The notes below the pieces were generated by a model, which was not told the origin of the DNA, ran no database searches, and saw only the letters and a list, made by a program, of their open reading frames with translations. The position numbers were made by a program, and so were the translations under genes. Source: Opitutales bacterium (GTDB lineage Bacteria > Verrucomicrobiota > Verrucomicrobiia > Opitutales > JABSRG01). From it: a stretch of 36,017 nucleotides of DNA. Shown one piece after another: positions 28,878 through 36,017 of the stretch. The stretch lies in NCBI GenBank assembly GCA_013215165.1, contig JABSRG010000040.1:1-36017 (forward strand). Reading direction: 5' to 3'. Each line of letters begins with the position of its first letter. Position 1 is the first letter of the stretch.

Positions 28878-29999
28878 TTAGATCATTTTGATCAAGTTTT
28901 TGCTGAGACCTTGTCCGTCTCCAACGAAGATTTGGAGGTCTGCTTTGTCTGTGATCTTTTCAACAGCTTCGAGCTCGCGGAGCCGCATCAAGATGGGGTT
29001 CTGCTCAATCAACTTTGCCGTATTGAGTTGGCTGCGCATGGCTGCGGTTTCTTCACGACGTTTGATGCCGTTGGCTTGGGCAGCCTTTTCGGCTTCGATG
29101 ACTTGATTGAGGATGTTCTTCATATCACCGGGAAGGATGATGTCGCGGATGCCGAGACCGTTGATCTCCAAGCCGTAGTCGGCAGCTTTACTCGCGAGAG
29201 CGAGCTGAGCCTCGTAAGTGACTGCGGCTTTGTCGGAGAGCACCGTGTCGAGTGTGCGTCCACCGATCTGAGCTCGGATGATGAGCTGGAGTTCTCGGTA
29301 GAGGGCTTGTTCAGCATCGGCAGTGGCCTCGGCAAGCAGGCGGACGTCTGTGATCCGGTAGGTTACCACAGCGTTTAACCGGAGTGTTACCTTATCGGCG
29401 GTCATGATATCCTGACCGGTGACGTCCAAGACTTTTTCCCTGAGGTCATGCGTGTAGATCTTTACCACTCCCACGTTCTTCCAGAAGACATGCCGTCCTG
29501 CAGGGAGCACTTCATGGAAGGCTCCATCGAGGTAGAGCACGCCCACCATGCCATCGACGATGTCATGTTGGTTCAATTGTGTAGCAGCAGAGGCTGCGCG
29601 GGTGATCACATTGAGATCTGAGTGAACAAACCGAGGACTAGTGATGTCGATCACCTCGACTGCCACTTGCATGACATTGCGTGCAAAGGCATAGAGTCCA
29701 GGCCCGAGGATGCTTTGGAATCGTCCATCTATCTGCACCAAAGCTCGCTGATCATCCTTCAAGTCGATGAAGTCAATTTTTTCAGCGGCTCCAGAGAGCT
29801 TCTGAAGCTGGCTCAGAATGGATGTGGATTCGTGAATCCAAGGATCACGTTCGGAGTGGATGCGGATGCCAACCAAGCCCTCGATATCAAGTCGGAGGTG
29901 ACGGCCGGTGCCGAGCAAGCCGACGACCTGTCCATCCCGTGTCTCGATACCGATGTGCTCGAAAGGAATCCGTGCGTATTGGATGAGCTTGATGTTCAT
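28878..29999 (-). CDS. SPFH/band-7 (stomatin/prohibitin-like) domain protein with atypical soluble N-terminal extension (start at MNIKLIQ; the ORF extends to 30056)
   Basis: The C-terminal half matches SPFH (TADKVTLRLNAVVTYRITD...IRAQIGGRTLDTVLSDKA...GLEINGLGIRDIILP...AEKAAQ..). No N-terminal TM is present. Confidence 0.65.
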   Translation of the reverse strand: MNIKLIQYARIPFEHIGIETRDGQVVGLLGTGRHLRLDIEGLVGIRIHSERDPWIHESTSILSQLQKLSGAAEKIDFIDLKDDQRALVQIDGRFQSILGPGLYAFARNVMQVAVEVIDITSPRFVHSDLNVITRAASAATQLNQHDIVDGMVGVLYLDGAFHEVLPAGRHVFWKNVGVVKIYTHDLREKVLDVTGQDIMTADKVTLRLNAVVTYRITDVRLLAEATADAEQALYRELQLIIRAQIGGRTLDTVLSDKAAVTYEAQLALASKAADYGLEINGLGIRDIILPGDMKNILNQVIEAEKAAQANGIKRREETAAMRSQLNTAKLIEQNPILMRLRELEAVEKITDKADLQIFVGDGQGLSKNLIKMI

Positions 30000-30387
30000 G
30001 GTTTTTATTTTGGGTTTGTGTTTCCCAGCCCTTGGGGCTGGAGGGCGGCGCTTCACCGCCGCCGCGGGATCTTAGAAATGAGAGGGACCCGAGAGAGGAG
30101 GACTCAATCCGCCCATCCCAGCTACTGATCGCGGAGTCTGGTTTGAGTGTGGGCGCGGAGTCCTTGTTACTTGCGATTCACGCCGAAGTAACTGACCACA
30201 GCGCAGAACGATTTGTAGCAAACGACGCCGCTTCCGCACGGTATCCACCGGACTGCTGGCGAGGTCGACTGTTGAGAGCGATTGGCATCGTTAGATGACT
30301 TATCGGTCTCAGATGTTGGGAGAGCATCCTCCCCTCATCGGGTGTTATTTTGGCTTTCTATGCCGGAGCCATTTTTAGTGGCGTGCG

Positions 30388-30459
30388 TGCGATAGGGCGG
30401 ATTCGAACCACCACTACAGGAGCCGTATTCCTGCGAGCTATCCATTACTCGACTATCTG
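30388..30459 (-). tRNA. tRNA-Arg (anticodon ACG) candidate
   Basis: Hand-folded cloverleaf. T arm GGTGG-TTCGAAT-CCGCC, D arm with GG, anticodon loop AU-ACG-GC. Acceptor pairs 1:72 and 2:71 are mismatched in my fold. Confidence 0.5.
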
Positions 30460-30460
30460 G

Positions 30461-30534
30461 TGTACTGTCCGGGATTTGAACCCGAGACGAATAGCTTATA
30501 AGGCTACTGCTCTACCGAACTGAGCTAACAGTGT
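30461..30534 (-). tRNA. tRNA candidate with anticodon UAU (Ile-like), CCA encoded
   Basis: D arm TAGCTCAGTTCGGTAGAGC, anticodon arm GTAGC-CTTATAA-GCTAT, T arm TCGGG-TTCAAAT-CCCGG. The top two acceptor pairs are again mismatched. Confidence 0.45.
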
Positions 30535-30606
30535 GGGCCCAGGCCGGATTTGAACCGGCGTCTTCCTCTCGATAGAGGCTACTCTACCTGACTGAGTTAC
30601 ACGAGC
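30535..30606 (-). tRNA. tRNA-like sequence, possibly a pseudogene (aberrant anticodon arm)
   Basis: Canonical T arm (GCCGG-TTCAAAT-CCGGC) and D arm (ACTC-AGTCAGGTA-GAGT). The anticodon region folds as a 5-bp stem with a 4-nt loop (CCTCT-atcg-AGAGG), and the acceptor pairs poorly. Confidence 0.3.
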
Positions 30607-31172
30607 CCGGTTTCAGATGGTGTTTCGAATGCCTCGCGGGACCCAGAGGGTCGACGGTCGTGCCGGATCTCTGCGCCGCAGGCCCACCATCGGAAAGTGA
30701 AAAGTGCTGTCGTCGGGTGATCGCGAGAGCGATTGCCACGAAGCGGAGAACTGCTGGCGCGGGCTAAAAAGTCAAAATGATGGGAAAGAACAGGGCATAA
30801 AAAAATCCAGGAGCTTTGGGCCGCCTGGACTGCTTTATCTGCTACGCGCTGAGTGTTATTTAATGCCATATCACTCGCATTTGCCTATGGCGTCGTCGCG
30901 TTTTAGATGAAGCAGTCCTGGGCCTTATTTCGCCTGTATGGTCCTGAGAGAACGAGTTGATCTCATTCGGGACACACAGGAGCCATGTGCGGCTGTAGGA
31001 TCTGTATATGTTTGTTTTCATGTGAAGGTGTGAAAATGAGTGAGGTTATTTGAGGACGCAACAATAAAATTACATAAAATATTGAATAATAAATACTTAA
31101 GAAATATTTAATGCACAGCCATGTTCGCATTTCGTCTCTTTCGAGAAAATGAAGCGAAATTTCGGTAGGCAC

Positions 31173-31207
31173 AAAAAAGGCCCGAAAGCTGGGGTGCTTT
31201 TCGGGCC
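31173..31207 (-). terminator. Rho-independent terminator on minus strand (GGCCCGAAA-loop-TTTCGGGCC followed by T6 in minus orientation)
   Basis: A 9-bp GC-rich stem is followed by TTTTTT when read on the minus strand. No annotated minus-strand gene lies upstream. Confidence 0.55.
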
Positions 31208-31462
31208 GGGTTTGGATGAATTGGGTTTATTGAGAAGTCCTACAGTAGGGTTCTTAATTTATCACGTTCACCACCCGGCCAGATGCACTCGACGCGCGTG
31301 TTCATTCCCGTGTGGAATGAGCCAGCGCTCCGTATGAGCTTTTGGTCTAGAGTTCGTGGATTCATGTTATGTGAAAAGGGGAATTGAGATTCTTTGCAGA
31401 TTGAGATGCGTCAAATGAAAAACAGATTGGCGCATCGATAAGCTTTAGAGATAATGGCGGGG

Positions 31463-31615
31463 ATGAAGCTCAGTATTTTAATTATAAGTCTTGTCGCGCT
31501 AGGTATGAGCGGCTGCGGTCCACGCGTTGAGAACGGCGTGACCATAGAAAAGAATGGTTGGTTTGGACTGGACGAGCAATCACGGCAGGTCCCTGAGATG
31601 GGTAATCCGGGGTAG
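31463..31615 (+). CDS. Small putative lipoprotein (about 50 aa; MKLSILIISLVALGMSGC...). Absent from the ORF track because it is under 60 aa.
   Basis: A signal peptide with a lipobox-like LGMSGC and a clean ORF to TAG at 31613. It sits at the left boundary of the 200-bp repeat. Confidence 0.35.
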   Translation: MKLSILIISLVALGMSGCGPRVENGVTIEKNGWFGLDEQSRQVPEMGNPG

Positions 31616-31678
31616 GCACTCTGGCATCGTCCGTCTGCTTTATCCGACAGTCGCCGCCGGAGACTTCGAAAGGAATAG

Positions 31679-31878
31679 ATCGGAAAGTCACCTGCCTCGT
31701 CTCAATCGAAGAGCGGCGCTCGGAACAGTATTGTTTGAAAATCCTGACCACAGCCAGCGCTTCGACGAAGAGAGAAGAGATCCCCCCAAAAATCTGTGCC
31801 CATCTGAGAAATCCATGGTTAAAAGAGTTTCAACCTCGCGCCCGCTTCGCTCGAGGTGCAGAGGCCGCAGAGAAAGTA
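31679..31878 (+). repeat. About 200-bp noncoding direct repeat, copy A (homology extends upstream into the lipoprotein gene 3' end)
   Basis: About 80% identical by eye to 34825–35022. Indels break every reading frame. A perfectly conserved core reads CTGTGCCCATCTGAGAAATCC(A/G)TGGTTAAAAGAG. Confidence 0.6.
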
Positions 31879-32087
31879 TACAATAAGCATTTACTGAAAA
31901 ATCATCCCCATCGCACAGTTTCTCCTGATAGCCACGGAGTAAAAAACATGCTGTTTCAACCCCAACAGCGAACCCATACCACCGGCAGGCCATCTCCAGC
32001 CGGTGCCCCAATGTTGGCTAACGCCGCCATCGGGGCACTTCAGCGTTCAGGAAAGCGTTTGACTTACACGTAAGATGGTTTGTCGTT

Positions 32088-32342
32088 GTGAGGATGACAA
32101 TAACTCTATCGACGAAAGGCCAGATCGTTGTTCCAAGCGAAATTCGTGCTAAACTCGGCTTGGTACCTGGCTGTTGCCTTTCGTGCGAAATCGATGCTGC
32201 AGGTAGGATTGTCTTAGATCCGCTGCTTGAAGACCGGAAGGCTGAGGTTGTGGGCTCCGGGGAAGATATCGCGCTTGTTGCTCCTGTAGGTTCACCGGAT
32301 ATGTCGCCGAAATTGGTGAAAGACATACTTTCGGAAATATGA
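32088..32342 (+). CDS. vapB: AbrB/MazE (SpoVT-AbrB) fold antitoxin VapB-like
   Basis: 84 aa (MRMTITLSTKGQIVVPSEIRAKLGL), with a 4-nt ATGA overlap with the downstream PIN gene. Confidence 0.7.
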   Translation: MRMTITLSTKGQIVVPSEIRAKLGLVPGCCLSCEIDAAGRIVLDPLLEDRKAEVVGSGEDIALVAPVGSPDMSPKLVKDILSEI

Positions 32343-32746
32343 GTCGCAAATCAGTATTGATCGACGTCAACCTGCTACTGGCAGTGGGTTGGAAGAGTCA
32401 TACTTTTCATCCCGAGGTGAAGGCTTGGCTTGATACGGGTGTCAAGGTTTCGACGTGTGCGATTACTGAGCTCGGCTTTTTGCGCGTGAGTATGAGTCCC
32501 GCCTTTCGCGCAGATTTTGCGAGTGCATCATCGGTTTGTTCTGCAATTACTTCCAGATACGCATTCGATTTTCTGCCTTGTGATTTGAGTCCATTAAGTA
32601 TGGCGAGTGTCAGTCGGCACCAAGACACCACAGATTCTTATTTGGTATCACTCGCCAGTTCTCATGAATTAAAGTTGGCGACATTAGACGATAAGCTGCT
32701 ATCTGCTGAGTGGGGGAAGGGCATGGCCTACAATCCGATTGCCTAG
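32339..32746 (+). CDS. vapC: PIN-domain ribonuclease toxin VapC-like
   Basis: 135 aa with conserved acidic positions (LIDVNLLLA, ITELGF, ATLDDKLL). Confidence 0.7.
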   Translation: MSRKSVLIDVNLLLAVGWKSHTFHPEVKAWLDTGVKVSTCAITELGFLRVSMSPAFRADFASASSVCSAITSRYAFDFLPCDLSPLSMASVSRHQDTTDSYLVSLASSHELKLATLDDKLLSAEWGKGMAYNPIA

Positions 32747-33309
32747 GGTCTGAACGGGCCGGTGCACTGAACGCTCTCAATGTCACTAAGTTCAGTGCTC
32801 ATTAGCTCGAAATAGGGTTAAAATTTCCTTTCTGATTTCCAGATGTTTCTGGGAATCGTTGGCCACTCTTTTCCGCGGTTGCGGTGTTCGCGGTTCGTGA
32901 CGGCCAGGGCGAATCGGGATTTTGTCTTTGAAGATCAGCTCCAAAAGCGCTTGGGTCGACTGGTCCCGTTTCGGTCGGTTCTGATGGATTAAGCTCCTGA
33001 ACTGTTTGAGCGTATCTATGCTGCCTGTGAAACTGAGCCAGCTCAGTGGGCGCGTTGAGGAGACTATGTGGCGTAGGCGCAAAGTGAATATTAGTTTGGA
33101 TGGCTGCTGCGCCTCATGAGCTAACGGGGTTTTGATTTATTCAATGAACACAGCCACGTCGATTATACTGCAAATCATTGTAATTCGGATGATGATCGAA
33201 GAAGCTCTTAAATCGTTTCATTATCGTTTCAATTTATCCTTTACGTTATCTTCGACCTCAATATATAAAAGAATTGGATCCAGGATTAATTGTTTCAACG
33301 AACTCTCTT

Positions 33310-34704
33310 ATGGGTAGCAAAAATTTGCTTAATTTCCTCAAAATCAACGGTCCTACTTTGTCGAGTGAGCTTGTGGACCGGTTGGGGATCAGTCGTGCAT
33401 CATTGTCTCGCCGCGTGCGAGAAGAGGGGAGTCGCATCGTGAGCATAGGGAAAGCTCGAGCCACTCGGCTTGCTGCTAGAGATGAAGGCTTGTCAGAGGC
33501 TGTGGCGCTTTATCAAGTCCAAACAAACGGTGAGGTTCTCTTTGTCGGGGCACTCCATGCTCTTGCAGACGGTGAGCACACGCAGTGGTATTTTGAATCC
33601 GAAGGGGGGCAGGAAAGCCTTATGGGAGGCGAGTTTAAACATGGATTATTTCCTGGGTGGCCTTGGTTTCTAGACGATATGCGACCGCAAGGGTTTCTAG
33701 GTCGCGCTTTTGGTAAGCGAATGGCAAAGCTTTTTCAGTATCAAGATAGCCCTGATACCTGGAGTGATCTACAGCTTTTGAATGCCCTCAAAGGGTTTGG
33801 ATGGAACTCGCATGGTAATTTTATTCTTGGCGATGCGAATGCATTGCAGGCGTTTCAAGCACATAAGTTGCGTGTGGCTGATGGCTTTTATAATAAAATT
33901 TCTCCTACAACATATCCTCAGCAAGCTCGCAAGGCTCTTGAGGAAGATGAAGCTTACGGCTCTTCTGCTGGAGGTGAACAGCCGAAGTTTACATCGATGG
34001 TGTGTGACGAAGAGCACTCTATGCCTCGTTCTGTGATTGTGAAATTCAGTCCAAAAATCGATACACCCGTGGGTAAGCGCTGGGCGGATTTGCTACATTC
34101 GGAAGATGTATCTAATCAGGTCCTACGAGAGATTGGATTTTCGGTAGCTGAAACGCGTATTTTTGTATTTGAATCACGCGTATTTTTGGAGTCATTACGT
34201 TTTGACCGAGCCGGTGCTTTGGGACGACGCGGCCTTGTGTCGTTACGCTCCTTGGATGCGGCCTACATTGGGACGGGGCAGGGCTCGTGGGCAAAGGTAG
34301 CTCGAGTATTACACACAGATGGCTGGATCAGCTCGGGCGACTGCCGACGCATCATTCAGTTACAGTGTTTTGGGGAACTTATCGGAAACTCCGACATGCA
34401 TTGGGGGAATCTAAGTTTCTTTCTCCCTAAAAATGGTTCATTCCCCCTAGCGCCTGTCTACGATATGTTGCCTATGTTCTTTCGCCCCACAAACACTGGA
34501 GAACTCCTAGAGCGCGTCTTCAAGCTTCGTTTGCCGAATCCAGAAGATCAAAATGAATGGTTGGAAATGCACTCACACGCGATGACTTTTTGGCGACGTA
34601 TTATAGATCATTCAGGAATCAGTAGGGATTTTAAAGCCATCGCAAAAGATGCCCTCGCTGCTGTGAATCGTCTTCCAGGTGTGGTGATGAGTAATAAAGC
34701 ATAA
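33310..34704 (+). CDS. YjjJ/HipH-like kinase: N-terminal HTH fused to a HipA-family Ser/Thr kinase domain (alternative start 33274)
   Basis: The HTH LLNFLKINGPTLSSELVDRLGISRASLSRRV mirrors the E. coli YjjJ N-terminus. HipA-like motifs are GSSAGGEQPKFT, NSDMHWGNLSF and APVYDMLP. Confidence 0.7.
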   Translation: MGSKNLLNFLKINGPTLSSELVDRLGISRASLSRRVREEGSRIVSIGKARATRLAARDEGLSEAVALYQVQTNGEVLFVGALHALADGEHTQWYFESEGGQESLMGGEFKHGLFPGWPWFLDDMRPQGFLGRAFGKRMAKLFQYQDSPDTWSDLQLLNALKGFGWNSHGNFILGDANALQAFQAHKLRVADGFYNKISPTTYPQQARKALEEDEAYGSSAGGEQPKFTSMVCDEEHSMPRSVIVKFSPKIDTPVGKRWADLLHSEDVSNQVLREIGFSVAETRIFVFESRVFLESLRFDRAGALGRRGLVSLRSLDAAYIGTGQGSWAKVARVLHTDGWISSGDCRRIIQLQCFGELIGNSDMHWGNLSFFLPKNGSFPLAPVYDMLPMFFRPTNTGELLERVFKLRLPNPEDQNEWLEMHSHAMTFWRRIIDHSGISRDFKAIAKDALAAVNRLPGVVMSNKA

Positions 34705-34824
34705 ACTAAGGCCTAAAATGATGGTAACACAGTGCTCAGAAACAATCGGAAGGCAGCTATCAATCAGTGGCTCATACTTGACGATATGGAAATGGATTTT
34801 TTTGGACTCGGACCACGTGAAACT

Positions 34825-35022
34825 GATCGGAAAGTGACCTGCCTCATCTCAATCAAAGACTGCCTCTCGAAAGTGCATTCTTTGAAACCCTGATCACAGA
34901 AAGCACTCCGACGAAGAGAAAAAAGGTCCCCTTAAAAAGATCTGTGCCCATCTGAGAAATCCGTGGTTAAAAGAGTCTTTACCTCGCGCCCGCTTCGCTC
35001 GAGACGCGGAGGCCGCAGAGAA
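34825..35022 (+). repeat. About 200-bp noncoding direct repeat, copy B (with degenerate remnant of the lipoprotein 3' end upstream, about 34790–34824)
   Basis: Aligns with 31679–31878. Relative to copy A it carries an upstream deletion of about 85 nt. Confidence 0.6.
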
Positions 35023-35148
35023 AATGTCACATGAAAATTGGGAAATAGGCAGTTCAATCGCGATAGAGTTTAGCCGTCAACAGACCGGTCATTGGCGAAT
35101 CGGGAATGCAGTCGAAAATATGGATGATTTGAGCTGAATCTTCAGGGC

Positions 35149-35574
35149 ATGAAGATATCAGGACGATTTGTTGATATAATATTAACTGTTCCGCAAAAGA
35201 TAATGAGATATTTTGTCTATACGCTAATGTATTTCGGAATTACAGTCTTGGTTTTTGCAGAGACTCCAGATGAGGCCGCAAAAAGAATAATTAAGAGCGA
35301 GTCTAGTTTTGGCTACAATCCAGTTGATGAAAGCAGTCAGGAGATGGTAAAGGCCACCGCTATTAATTCTAGGATGCGCTTGAATTGGTTGATGGTCCAT
35401 AGTGATAGTGTCACAGAAGAGCTTAGAATTTGCTATGCGCTCACCCTTATTCAAAAGAATCTGGAGTTTATGGAAAGCTCAAGGAGTGGTGTGCAAGCGC
35501 TACCTAAGGAGATCCAGCTACTTGAAGCCCAGAAACTGTTGGCAGACAGGTTACTTGTTATTCGGTCTCGGTGA
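35149..35574 (+). CDS. Hypothetical small secreted protein
   Basis: 141 aa with an N-terminal hydrophobic signal-like segment (MRYFVYTLMYFGITVLVFAETPDEA). AT-rich. Confidence 0.35.
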   Translation: MKISGRFVDIILTVPQKIMRYFVYTLMYFGITVLVFAETPDEAAKRIIKSESSFGYNPVDESSQEMVKATAINSRMRLNWLMVHSDSVTEELRICYALTLIQKNLEFMESSRSGVQALPKEIQLLEAQKLLADRLLVIRSR

Positions 35575-35619
35575 GACGAGGGGAGGGCCATTTACGTTGT
35601 TGCAGCCCTCGGGTCACAT

Positions 35620-35913
35620 AAAAAGGCGTTATAATACTGGGATGGGGCTGGTTGATATCGCGCGCGTGCCGCAGGGATCAGTAAGCAGCATCTGATGCGA
35701 CTGTATCGGCACCATTTTGGTTTTTCACCGATGAGCGATCTCTGGAGAGTTAGAATAGAGGCGAGTAAGCGCCTTCTTGCAGAAACAGGCCTCACTTCAG
35801 AAAAGATTGCATATCGCTGTGGCTTTCAGTCACCCTATCATTTTTCGAGAAAATTCAAAGAGTTGGTCCGAGTCGGTCCTAGAGAATTCAGAGTTCAGTG
35901 TTGGGAGGATTGA
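35620..35913 (+). pseudogene. AraC/XylS-family HTH domain remnant, frameshifted (only the C-terminal DNA-binding domain, split across two frames near 35690)
   Basis: The segments GLVDIARV (one frame) and AGISKQHLMRLYRHHFGFSPM...IAYRCGFQSPYHFSRKFKELVRVGPREF (another frame) together make a canonical AraC double HTH. A 1-nt indel sits in a GCGCGCGTG run. Confidence 0.5.
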
Positions 35914-36017
35914 ATTTCGGTTTTTAGCCAATTCCTAGCTGGGTATGACCAGAAGTGCGGGGAGAAAAATTTCGAATAATCGCATTTTATGGTGTACAAG
36001 CGTTCACAAGTTTGAAA

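What the first reader, a model, noticed from the sequence alone, without database searches (positions are those of the whole stretch)
31450..35150. Toxin–antitoxin island bracketed by divergent 200-bp direct repeats next to a tRNA array
Repeat A (31679–31878) is followed by vapBC, a minus-strand ORF remnant and an HTH–HipA (HipH-like) kinase, and the cluster ends in repeat B (34825–35022). The whole lies about 1 kb from three abutting tRNA-like genes in AT-rich DNA. It looks like a horizontally acquired or duplicated defence/TA island, but no integrase is visible inside the window. The repeats (about 80% identical, not exact) argue for duplication or homologous capture rather than site-specific att sites.
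Basis: partly seen in the sequence, partly recalled or inferred. Interest (0 to 1): 0.7.

Follow-up and report, generated by a model that had tools for sequence, protein, structure and literature searches.

The report
Toxin genes between two diverged repeats
Two known kinds of toxin module (vapBC and a HipH/YjjJ-type kinase) sit in a decayed, insertion-sequence-scarred accessory patch of an Opitutales genome, flanked by two old 199-base noncoding repeats that are not integration sites, so the locus is largely ordinary.

Summary
Two direct repeats (31678-31876 and 34825-35023; 83% identical, E=2e-47) bracket vapBC, a transposase remnant and an HTH-HipA kinase. They lie 1.07 kb from three abutting tRNA-like genes.

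The window is a whole contig of an Opitutales MAG.
- The genes are ordinary: an AbrB-type VapB with a PIN VapC, and a YjjJ/HipH equivalog with its own conserved operator boxes.
- The minus-strand "remnant" is the C-terminal tail of an IS4-family transposase. vapBC and hipH are therefore separate modules joined by IS decay.
- Low GC/GC3 runs from about 31.1 kb past repeat B to the contig end (AraC fragment), and a frameshifted ISKra4 transposase follows in conspecific contigs. The repeats therefore do not delimit the compositional island.
- No integrase is present.
- About 25 conspecific contigs all carry the block. None shows a deletion junction, and SNP density matches the core.
- The tRNA-likes are the vestige of a tRNA array conserved upstream of a slipin gene in relatives. 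They face the wrong way to be an integration target.
- The repeats are noncoding, show no conserved fold, and have no TIR or TSD. Apart from a 29-nt three-heptad motif also seen in other Verrucomicrobiota and their phages, they match nothing else.

Verdict: a mosaic accessory patch; low interest.

The parts
30387..30606 (-). Three abutting tRNA-like genes: a weak one at 30536-30606, tRNA-Ile(TAT) at 30458-30534 and tRNA-Arg(ACG) at 30387-30459. They are the vestige of a tRNA array that sits upstream of the slipin gene in relatives.
   Evidence: ARAGORN. Rfam gives 30.2, 55.6 and 36.7 bits, with the top two acceptor pairs mismatched in two of them. The stretch is 77% identical over 177 nt to the last three tRNAs of the array in L013. 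Arrays of 7-11 tRNAs lie upstream of slipin in L011, L013 and L015. Alignment.
31059..31105 (.). AT-rich 47-mer conserved upstream of the tRNA array. It is the last point of synteny with relatives and marks the left limit of the variable region.
   Evidence: 87.5% identity over 48 aligned columns to L013 7246-7292, about 450 nt upstream of that array's first tRNA.
31454..31615 (+). 53-aa ORF with a signal peptide and a lipobox-like MSGC. Its composition is core-like.
   Evidence: ORF list. It is called as a gene in many conspecific contigs. GC3 is 0.57. No family hit.
31678..31876 (+). Repeat A: a 199-nt noncoding unit.
   Evidence: No Rfam hit. Fold z-scores are near 0 on both strands. Substitutions break predicted pairs as often as random relocations do.
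31792..31820 (+). 29-nt motif of three phased heptads inside repeat A (ATCTGTG-CCC-ATCTGAG-AA-ATCCATG-GTT).
   Evidence: The same motif family occurs in other Verrucomicrobiota MAGs and in IMG/VR viral contigs.
32094..32342 (+). vapB: an AbrB/SpoVT-type antitoxin of 82 aa (84 aa from the GTG at 32088).
   Evidence: TIGR01439 33.6 bits against a cutoff of 28.3. PF04014 E=0.0018. Its stop overlaps the vapC start as ATGA.
32339..32746 (+). vapC: a PIN-domain toxin of 135 aa. Acidic residues D9, E44, D99 and D117/D118 are present.
   Evidence: TIGR00028 E=2.2e-18, covering 3-129 of 143 profile positions, 66.8 bits (below the 73.6 cutoff). PF01850 E=5e-4. Residues were read from the translation.
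32794..33094 (-). Remnant of the C-terminal tail of an IS4-family transposase. The N-terminal 375 aa or so are missing.
   Evidence: 23 hits at E<=1e-3 among 1.84 billion representatives, best 6e-8. The hits are IS4-family transposases, NF033592 at 181-218 bits. 49% identity over 77 aa to residues 313-389 of P0242. tblastn limits the homology to 32794-33094.
33212..33297 (+). hipH upstream region with three conserved boxes: ATCGTTTCA at 33212-33220 and 33223-33231, and ATTGTTTCA at 33289-33297. It is inferred to be the operator for the HTH domain of HipH.
   Evidence: The boxes are invariant in an alignment with the hipH upstream regions of L032 and L034, whose proteins are only 59-60% identical (BLAST).
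33310..34704 (+). hipH (yjjJ-type): an N-terminal winged-HTH fused to a HipA-family Ser/Thr kinase, 464 aa, monocistronic.
   Evidence: NF007297 439.7 bits against a cutoff of 401. PF07804 E=7.8e-25 and MarR_2 E=1.4e-4. The motifs GSSAGGEQPKFT, GNSDMHWGNLS and YDMLPM are invariant or nearly so among homologues. PDB relatives are HipT and HipA.
34825..35023 (+). Repeat B: the second copy of the 199-nt unit.
34940..34968 (+). 29-nt three-heptad motif inside repeat B. It is identical to the copy in the Opitutales MAG locus L002.
35149..35574 (+). ORF of 141 aa (123 aa from the internal start at 35203) with a signal-peptide-like N-terminus. It has very low GC (0.41) and no family hit.
35695..35913 (+). 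C-terminal fragment of an AraC-family regulator (HTH_18 only, 72 aa), i.e. a gene remnant.
   Evidence: PF12833 E=2.3e-15, covering profile positions 14-78 only.

Best explanation
The block lies in the variable, slowly decaying accessory patch of an Opitutales chromosome. The patch runs from about 31.1 kb to the contig end. It continues in conspecific contigs and lies beside a conserved tRNA-array/slipin module.

The block holds two self-contained toxin modules.
1. vapBC is a type II toxin-antitoxin pair. An AbrB-fold VapB would neutralise and co-repress a PIN-domain RNase, VapC.
2. hipH is a monocistronic YjjJ-type gene: a HipA-family Ser/Thr kinase fused to an N-terminal HTH. The HTH most likely autoregulates through three ATCGTTTCA boxes just upstream.

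The two modules were juxtaposed by IS activity followed by deletion. An IS4 transposase tail survives between them. Further right lie an AraC fragment and a frameshifted ISKra4 transposase.

The two flanking 199-nt repeats are old paralogous copies (17% diverged) of a discrete noncoding unit. That unit is built around a REP-like 29-nt three-heptad motif that is scattered in Verrucomicrobiota and their phages. The repeats are not att sites of a site-specific integrase, not tRNA-derived, not a MITE pair and not a detectably structured RNA.

Their bracketing of the toxin genes is most likely incidental (intergenic repeat units on either side of accreted genes) or the product of homologous recombination between such units. 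It does not mark a mobile cassette.

Shown: the anatomy, the family assignments, the IS remnants, the composition, the fixation in the sampled population, and the synteny of the tRNA array. Inferred: the toxin activities, the operator role of the boxes, the order of events, and the role of the repeats.
For: - Repeats and their properties.
- No Rfam family and no fold signal. In an unbiased test, substitutions break pairs as often as random relocations (P=0.48-1.0).
- No inverted termini.
- Only the 29-nt core matches anything else.
- The motif occurs in other Verrucomicrobiota MAGs and in at least 8 distinct viral contigs, singly or as inverted pairs.
- Family assignments.
- IS4 remnant.
- ISKra4 transposase, split into 104-aa and 317-aa ORFs, just beyond the contig end.
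- hipH boxes conserved in loci with 59-60% protein identity.
- hipH homologues in relatives are monocistronic, in unrelated contexts, without vapBC or repeats.
- Composition.
- About 25 conspecific contigs at 99.7-100% identity are all colinear. Coverage is 15x at repeat A and 10x at repeat B. There is no deletion junction, and SNP density is similar in the block and the core.
- tRNA array and slipin synteny.
Against: - The rest of this genome is not available, so the copy number of the 199-nt unit is unknown. Only two copies are seen in 37.7 kb.
- A protein search with the repeat-derived ORF found only itself. This argues against a high-copy family and leaves a two-copy local origin open, for example capture by recombination.
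- The same sharp boundaries at both ends of both copies are exactly what a Campbell-type integration through a shared unit would give.
- The 3' part is better conserved (90.6% against 77.6%, p=0.02). This hints at constraint, so the unit may have a function I could not identify.
- No activity of VapC, HipH or the boxes was tested.
Confidence: 0.55

Rival explanations
1. Homologous capture. A circular DNA (a plasmid fragment, an excised element or an IS-generated circle) carrying one copy of the 199-nt unit plus vapBC and hipH integrated by RecA-dependent single crossover into a resident copy between the lipoprotein ORF and orf141. This left hybrid direct repeats around the insert.
For: - The repeats are direct, have identical sharp boundaries, and all four flanks are unrelated.
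- The insert has lower GC3 than the left flank: lipoprotein ORF 0.57 against 0.44-0.49.
- IS remnants inside the insert show it has a mobile past.
- Only two copies are detectable anywhere.
Against: - The right flank (orf141, AraC fragment) is even lower in GC than the insert, so the pre-insertion site is not core-like.
- 17% divergence means the event was either very old or used a very diverged donor. That is a poor substrate for RecA: the longest exact run is 23 nt.
- No empty site or deletion variant occurs among about 25 conspecific contigs.
- No similar cassette is found in plasmids, phages, metagenomes or relatives.
Confidence: 0.22
2. Decayed integrative island. The repeats are degenerate attL/attR sites of a site-specific element whose integrase has been lost. 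Alternatively they mark one unit of a tandem accretion at a hotspot, with further units beyond the contig end.
For: - The location is a variable region next to a tRNA array, where relatives carry unrelated cargo, including restriction- and defence-like genes in L013.
- Composition is atypical.
- Direct repeats flank toxin genes, which are typical island cargo.
Against: - No integrase, excisionase or recombinase is found in the window or in the 1.7 kb beyond it. Only DDE transposases are seen.
- The repeats are 199 nt at 83% identity with indels. This is unlike att cores.
- The repeats are not derived from a tRNA or tmRNA.
- The tRNA genes' 3' ends face away from the block.
- The compositional anomaly is not bounded by the repeats.
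Confidence: 0.08
3. Functional cis-element. Each 199-nt unit is a regulatory module, either a protein-binding site built on the three phased heptads or a small transcript. It would control or insulate the neighbouring genes and is retained by selection.
For: - The 3' 85 nt are significantly better conserved than the 5' part.
- The 29-nt core is almost identical in a different Opitutales MAG, close in a Spartobacteria MAG, and recurs in the intergenic DNA of Verrucomicrobiota phage contigs.
- The 10/9-nt phasing of the heptads suits a protein binding on one face of the helix.
- Both copies lie 125-210 nt upstream of a + strand gene.
Against: - No promoter or terminator signal above the shuffled expectation.
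- No conserved RNA fold and no Rfam family.
- The motif's orientation relative to flanking genes is not constant in other loci.
- The motif is absent from 108 kb of the closest Opitutales relatives.
- The two downstream genes are unrelated.
Confidence: 0.15

Closest known systems
VapBC type II toxin-antitoxin modules (AbrB/SpoVT-type VapB with a PIN-domain VapC; TIGR00028 'Mtu_PIN_fam')
   Same: Two small genes with the antitoxin first and an ATGA overlap. An AbrB-type DNA-binding domain in the antitoxin. A PIN domain with the conserved acidic residues in the toxin.
   Different: VapC scores just below the curated cutoffs (66.8 against 73.6 bits; PF01850 21 against 23.6). It has no close solved relative by sequence. 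Activity and RNA target are untested.
E. coli YjjJ/HipH (HipA-family clade X; Gerdes et al. 2021, PMC8262856; Gratani et al. 2022, PMC9948734)
   Same: An N-terminal HTH of about 100 aa fused to the HipA-like kinase core with all the kinase motifs. The gene is monocistronic with no hipB or hipS neighbour. It scores above the NCBIfam equivalog cutoff.
   Different: It comes from a Verrucomicrobiota lineage. Three conserved ATCGTTTCA boxes lie upstream; I did not find them mentioned for E. coli in the passages read. Substrates are unknown here (CsrA and L31 in E. coli, PMC9948734).
tRNA-linked genomic islands with flanking direct repeats (attL/attR) and an integrase
   Same: Accessory cargo with lower GC lies near tRNA genes and is flanked by direct repeats.
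   Different: There is no integrase. The repeats are 199 nt, only 83% identical and not tRNA-derived. The tRNA 3' ends face away from the block. The repeats do not bound the low-GC region.
REP/BIME-type short interspersed intergenic repeats, and MITE-flanked composite units
   Same: A short conserved motif recurs in intergenic DNA of many genomes of one phylum and their phages. It is sometimes found as inverted pairs that form a hairpin followed by a T-run (L052). Discrete units flank a gene block.
   Different: The motif is three direct heptads, not a palindrome. The 199-nt unit has no TIR or TSD, and only two copies are known. No RAYT or cognate transposase was identified.
[quoted passage not shown] 2021, PMC8421152)
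   Same: Relatives carry 7-11 closely packed tRNA genes with redundant or unusual anticodons. An rtcB gene lies nearby in L013. The paper reports L-arrays in Verrucomicrobia, and rtcB and VapC links in cyanobacteria.
   Different: Here only three abutting, partly degenerate tRNA-like genes remain. The association with a slipin gene did not turn up in my single literature search.

Membership tests
Type II TA, VapBC | Two adjacent small co-directional genes, antitoxin upstream, overlapping or abutting | tested here: met
   vapB 32094-32342 and vapC 32339-32746 share ATGA.
Type II TA, VapBC | Antitoxin with an N-terminal DNA-binding domain (AbrB/SpoVT type here) | tested here: met
   TIGR01439 33.6 bits against a cutoff of 28.3.
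Type II TA, VapBC | Toxin is a PIN domain that reaches the curated family thresholds | tested here: inconclusive
   TIGR00028 E=2.2e-18 over 3-129/143, but 66.8 bits is below the 73.6 cutoff. PF01850 21 bits is below 23.6.
Type II TA, VapBC | Conserved acidic active-site residues of the PIN domain | tested here: met
   D9, E44, D99 and D117/D118, read from the translation at the expected motif positions. This was not checked on a structure.
Type II TA, VapBC | Toxicity of VapC and its neutralisation by VapB | not testable with these tools
   Needs expression assays.
HipH/YjjJ kinase | Scores as a YjjJ equivalog over its full length | tested here: met
   NF007297 439.7 bits against a cutoff of 401; residues 6-455 against profile positions 6-438/446.
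HipH/YjjJ kinase | N-terminal HTH domain fused to the kinase core | tested here: met
   MarR_2 wHTH E=1.4e-4 at residues 18-49 of the 476-aa ORF. Several homologues carry precomputed HTH Pfam hits.
HipH/YjjJ kinase | Gly-rich loop, catalytic and Mg-binding motifs intact | tested here: met
   GSSAGGEQPKFT, GNSDMHWGNLS and YDMLPM are invariant or nearly invariant in the alignment.
HipH/YjjJ kinase | Monocistronic, with no adjacent hipB or hipS | tested here: met
   An IS4 remnant lies upstream and repeat B downstream. The same holds in relatives.
HipH/YjjJ kinase | Ser/Thr kinase activity and growth inhibition | not testable with these tools
   Needs biochemistry.
Integrative genomic island | Integrase or recombinase gene | tested here: not met
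   None in 30.3-36.0 kb or in the 1.7 kb beyond it. Only DDE transposase remnants are found.
Integrative genomic island | Short, near-exact att direct repeats, typically a tRNA 3' segment | tested here: not met
   199 nt, 83% identical, longest exact run 23 nt. No tRNA or tmRNA signal in the repeats.
Integrative genomic island | Atypical composition confined to the repeat-bounded segment | tested here: not met
   GC is 0.479 between the repeats, 0.486 to their left and 0.442 to their right, against 0.527 for the core.
Integrative genomic island | Presence/absence polymorphism at the repeats | tested here: not met
   No empty site or deletion junction in about 25 conspecific contigs. Close sister species are not available.
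MITE / composite transposon | Terminal inverted repeats and target-site duplications | tested here: not met
   No inverted termini. The flanks GGAATA|...|GTATAC and GAAACT|...|ATGTCA show no duplication.
MITE / interspersed repeat family | Many dispersed copies in the genome | tested here: inconclusive
   Only 2 copies in the 37.7 kb available. None is found among 5.8 billion protein clusters via the repeat ORF or in the public collections.
Structured noncoding RNA | Known family, or a fold that is more stable or more conserved than chance | tested here: not met
   No Rfam hit at E<=5. z-scores range from -0.6 to +0.12. The substitution test gives P=0.48-1.0.

The most novel reading that the evidence does not exclude
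The 199-nt units are lineage-specific elaborations of an undescribed REP-like element of Verrucomicrobiota and their phages. That element is a 29-nt motif of three heptads phased at one helical turn. The units would serve as protein-binding 'punctuation' that also provides portable homology, letting gene blocks such as this toxin pair be captured or lost by recombination.
Probability: 0.15. Interest if true: 0.45.

Novelty: new member of a known kind. Interest (0 to 1): 0.25.

Why it matters
It matters little for toxin-antitoxin or island biology. vapBC and hipH are known kinds, and the locus is a typical IS-scarred accessory patch. The case does show that a pair of flanking repeats near tRNA genes is not enough to call an island.

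Two by-products may deserve follow-up:
- A phylum-wide three-heptad motif shared by Verrucomicrobiota and their phages.
- A tRNA array conserved upstream of a slipin gene in Opitutales, in which one tRNA body carries different anticodons in different lineages.

Tried and rejected
1. Structured RNA. There are no Rfam hits and single-sequence folds have z-scores near 0. RNAalifold suggested a minus-strand hairpin with every pair kept. An unbiased test showed this was a selection artefact: taking the structure from one copy and relocating the substitutions at random gives P=0.48-1.0.

2. Coding remnant. The indels break every frame that spans the unit. The only shared minus-strand frame found nothing but itself. 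A 23/24-aa Arg-rich ORF in the 3' part has as many non-synonymous as synonymous changes. Other motif instances have no common peptide. IS4 transposases do not match the repeats.

3. DGR template/variable repeat pair. The mismatches are not adenine-specific and there is no reverse transcriptase.

4. MITE, or IS ends of the neighbouring ISKra4 or IS4. There is no TIR or TSD and no similarity to the IS sequences.

5. CsrA-binding sites on the reverse strand of the motif (CACGGAU three times in the generic form). In this species two of the three GGA are lost, and GGA counts in the unit are at chance level. Rejected.

6. Mobile cassette. There are no DNA matches in plasmids or phages, and no other copy in GTDB species genomes, JGI metagenomes or IMG/VR. 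The one metagenome hit (L003) is a chance match inside a coding gene of a high-GC organism.

7. Repeat-mediated deletion variants and gene conversion among conspecific contigs. None was seen.

8. Contig L031's first 368 nt and the L004 gap looked like structural variants. They are, respectively, a very AT-rich and probably chimeric end and a run of N.

Full report
**Source and context**

The window is an entire 36,017-bp contig of an Opitutales (Verrucomicrobiota) MAG. The HipA-like protein is 100% identical to an NCBI protein annotated from an "Opitutales bacterium", and that protein's longest contig is 36,017 bp.

The same species occurs in GCA_022446765.1 and in about 25 ENA/Logan metagenome contigs at 99.7-100% identity.

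Positions 6.7-25 kb hold a cell-division/cell-wall cluster; FtsA and FtsZ were confirmed by precomputed Pfam hits. An SSF transporter, two unknown genes and a slipin (SPFH/Band_7) gene at 28878-30056 (-) follow.

**Check of the observation**

The two repeats are real.
- Copy A is 31678-31876 and copy B is 34825-35023, in direct orientation.
- Identity is 83.7% over 202 columns, E=2e-47.
- I count 30 substitutions (20 transitions, 10 transversions) and three small indels.
- The 5' 116 columns are 77.6% identical and the 3' 85 columns 90.6% (Fisher p=0.02).
- The longest exact runs are 23, 23, 15 and 13 nt.
- Homology starts and stops sharply at both ends, and all four flanks are unrelated.
- There is no third copy in the window or in any fetched sequence.

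- vapB (32094-32342) has an AbrB domain above the curated cutoff.
- vapC (32339-32746) overlaps vapB by ATGA. It is a PIN protein at E=2e-18, slightly below the curated cutoffs, and carries the expected acidic residues D9, E44, D99 and D117/D118.
- The 464-aa protein at 33310-34704 scores as an equivalog of YjjJ/HipH (439.7 bits against 401). It has an N-terminal winged HTH and intact kinase motifs.
- Three abutting tRNA-like genes lie on the minus strand at 30387-30606, 1,072 nt to the left of repeat A.

**What the minus-strand remnant is**

The 96-aa ORF at 32792-33082 (-) has no Pfam or NCBIfam hit. An exhaustive HMMER scan of 1.84 billion representatives gave 23 hits at E<=1e-3, the best at 6e-8.

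The full-length hits are IS4-family transposases of about 480-497 aa (NF033592, 181-218 bits). The ORF aligns to their extreme C-terminal tail, at 49% identity over 77 aa to P0242.

tblastn confines the homology to 32794-33094, so the N-terminal 375 residues or so are gone. vapBC and hipH are therefore separated by a truncated insertion sequence.

**hipH is a self-contained module**

Immediately upstream of hipH are two tandem ATCGTTTCA boxes (33212-33220 and 33223-33231) and a third, ATTGTTTCA (33289-33297). These boxes are invariant in the upstream regions of hipH homologues from two other Opitutales-like genomes, whose proteins are only 59-60% identical. I infer they are the operator for the HTH domain of HipH.

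In those relatives hipH is monocistronic. It sits in unrelated contexts, with no vapBC and no repeat. This matches the published definition of HipH: a monocistronic operon, an N-terminal HTH of about 100 aa and four kinase motifs (PMC8262856).

The closest HipH homologues are at most 61% identical, and the named ones are Opitutales. Nothing points to a recent import from a distant phylum.

**Is the repeat-bounded segment an island?**

Composition is mildly atypical.
- GC is 0.476 for 30607-36017, against 0.527 for 1-30300.
- GC3 is 0.41-0.49 for vapB, vapC, hipH, orf141 and the AraC fragment, against 0.49-0.68 for the core genes.

The anomaly is not bounded by the repeats.
- GC is 0.486 to the left of repeat A, 0.479 between the repeats and 0.442 to the right of repeat B.
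- The only clear tetranucleotide outlier is 33-36 kb.

To the right of repeat B lie a low-GC ORF with a signal peptide and a 72-aa C-terminal fragment of an AraC regulator. Just past the contig end, an ISKra4-family transposase is split into 104-aa and 317-aa ORFs, followed by an Xre-like HTH gene (L018 and L059). In one sample an IS5-family transposase is joined to position 35176. This is either a variant or a scaffold chimera.

No integrase or other site-specific recombinase is present anywhere. PADLOC gives no convincing defence-system hit, only one weak partial match for HipH at E=0.002.

Among conspecific contigs from many samples the block is always present and colinear. Fifteen contigs cover repeat A and ten cover repeat B. 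None shows a left-of-A/right-of-B junction. SNP density is similar inside and outside the block, and SNPs in repeat A do not copy the state of repeat B.

The repeats differ by 17%, while the population differs by 0.3% or less. The duplication or capture is therefore far older than the sampled diversity.

The nearest other genomes share only 65% or less slipin identity.

**The tRNA-like genes are not an integration target**

In three distant relatives (L011, L013, and L015 = Puniceicoccus vermicola) the slipin gene is preceded on the same strand by an array of 7-11 tRNA genes.

The window's three tRNA-likes are 77% identical over 177 nt to the last three tRNAs of the L013 array. An AT-rich 47-mer (31059-31105) matches a site about 450 nt upstream of that array.

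The tRNA-likes are therefore the vestige of a conserved array/slipin module. Their 3' ends face the slipin gene, away from the toxin block. Synteny ends at about 31.1 kb, and the DNA on the far side of the array differs in every relative. This marks a variable region rather than a discrete insertion.

**What the repeats are**

They are noncoding.
- The indels break every long frame.
- The only shared frame, on the minus strand, retrieves only itself from 5.8 billion protein clusters.

They are not a known RNA, and they fold no better than shuffles on either strand. RNAalifold's all-pairs-kept hairpin fails an unbiased test. With a structure predicted from one copy alone, the real substitutions break as many pairs as randomly relocated ones (P=0.48-1.0).

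They have no terminal inverted repeats or target duplications. They show no similarity to the IS remnants. They have no match in plasmids, phages, GTDB species genomes, JGI metagenomes or IMG/VR beyond a 29-nt core.

That core is ATCYGTG-NN-CATCYGNG-N-AATCCRTGGTT: three heptads starting 10 and 9 nt apart.
- It is identical in another Opitutales MAG and close in a Spartobacteria MAG.
- A degenerate pattern carrying about 47 bits of information finds it in 7 IMG/VR loci, against about 0.001 expected (my rough estimate, assuming about 1e11 bases in IMG/VR). A shorter pattern finds 19 loci.
- There it lies in intergenic DNA between phage structural genes. It occurs singly or as inverted pairs; in L052 the pair forms a perfect 19-bp hairpin followed by a T-run.
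- It is absent from 108 kb of the closest Opitutales relatives.

The best-conserved part of the repeats is thus an instance of a REP-like short motif of the phylum. The remaining 170 nt or so are private to this species.

**Most likely explanation**

The locus is a mosaic accessory patch assembled stepwise with IS involvement and then eroded. It contains two independent, apparently intact toxin modules. The 199-nt units are old paralogous noncoding elements. Their position on either side of the toxin genes is either incidental or the trace of homologous recombination between such units. They are not att sites.

| Reading | Weight |
|---|---|
| Mosaic accessory patch; repeats incidental or recombination traces | about 0.55 |
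| Campbell-type capture of a circle through the shared unit | about 0.22 |
| Selected cis-regulatory or protein-binding role | about 0.15 |
| Decayed site-specific island | about 0.08 |

Campbell-type capture would explain the sharp boundaries. It fits poorly with the 17% divergence, the 23-nt maximum exact match and the even lower GC of the supposed original right flank.

**Novelty**

VapBC, HipH and IS-scarred accessory regions are all known kinds, and nothing here departs from them. The two items that are possibly undescribed are side observations: the three-heptad motif, and the tRNA-array/slipin association with anticodon changes in a conserved tRNA body.

Noticed in passing
window 30387-30606 (-); L013 7737-9550; L015 8806-9601; L011 8404-9432: A tRNA gene array lies directly upstream of a slipin (SPFH) gene in several distant Opitutales genomes, with 7-11 tRNAs and odd anticodons such as Asn-ATT, Asp-ATC and Leu-AAG. 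The window keeps only the last three, abutting or overlapping by 2 nt. The middle tRNA body is highly conserved but carries different anticodons: TAT (Ile) here, GAA (Phe) in L013 and L011, and ACG (Arg) in L015. The top of the acceptor stem is mismatched. An rtcB RNA ligase lies 2.6 kb downstream of slipin in L013.
   Followed up: partly
window 31792-31820 and 34940-34968; L001 2232 and 2455; L002 2021; L039-L057: The 29-nt motif ATCYGTGNNCATCYGNGNAATCCRTGGTT (three phased heptads) recurs in Verrucomicrobiota MAGs and in IMG/VR viral contigs. It is intergenic, and occurs singly or as inverted pairs; in L052 the pair forms a perfect 19-bp hairpin followed by a T-run. There is no Rfam family, and an exact-word literature search found nothing relevant.
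   Followed up: partly
window 33212-33297: Three ATCGTTTCA-type boxes upstream of hipH are invariant in hipH loci whose proteins are only about 60% identical. In the relatives the third box overlaps the start codon. They are a likely HipH autoregulatory operator.
   Followed up: partly
window 31059-31105; L013 7246-7292: An AT-rich 47-mer is conserved (87.5%) about 450 nt upstream of the first tRNA of the array in two genomes whose slipins are only 61% identical. It is a candidate promoter or regulatory site of the array.
   Followed up: no
window 31178-31206: A strong hairpin (GGCCCGAAAGC...GCTTTTCGGGCC) is followed on the minus strand by TTTTTT. It looks like an intrinsic terminator for a minus-strand transcript starting to its right, where a 41-aa ORF lies at 31240-31365 (-). 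The consensus scan missed it because of a bulge.
   Followed up: no
beyond the window end: L018 1037-2361; L059 1224-2842: An ISKra4-family transposase, split into 104-aa and 317-aa ORFs (a frameshift or pseudogene), starts 11 nt past the contig end and is followed by an Xre-like HTH gene. This probably explains why many assemblies break near 36.0 kb.
   Followed up: yes
L058 2233-3437, joined to window 35176: In one sample an IS5-family (DUF772/DDE_Tnp_1) transposase preceded by mutL is joined to position 35176, inside the 5' end of the 141-aa ORF. This is either an IS insertion or rearrangement variant, or a scaffold chimera through a multicopy IS.
   Followed up: partly
window 35041-35059: Four independent assemblies have contig ends within 35041-35059 (L019, L020 and L022 start there; L024 ends there), 18-36 nt to the right of repeat B. 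This is unexplained. It may reflect a strain-variable junction or low coverage.
   Followed up: no
L013 1-9900: In one relative the DNA on the far side of the tRNA array carries HATPase_c_3, HNH, Vsr, AAA-ATPase and PD-(D/E)XK genes, a defence- or restriction-like cluster. This side of the array appears to be a hotspot for variable cargo across the order.
   Followed up: no
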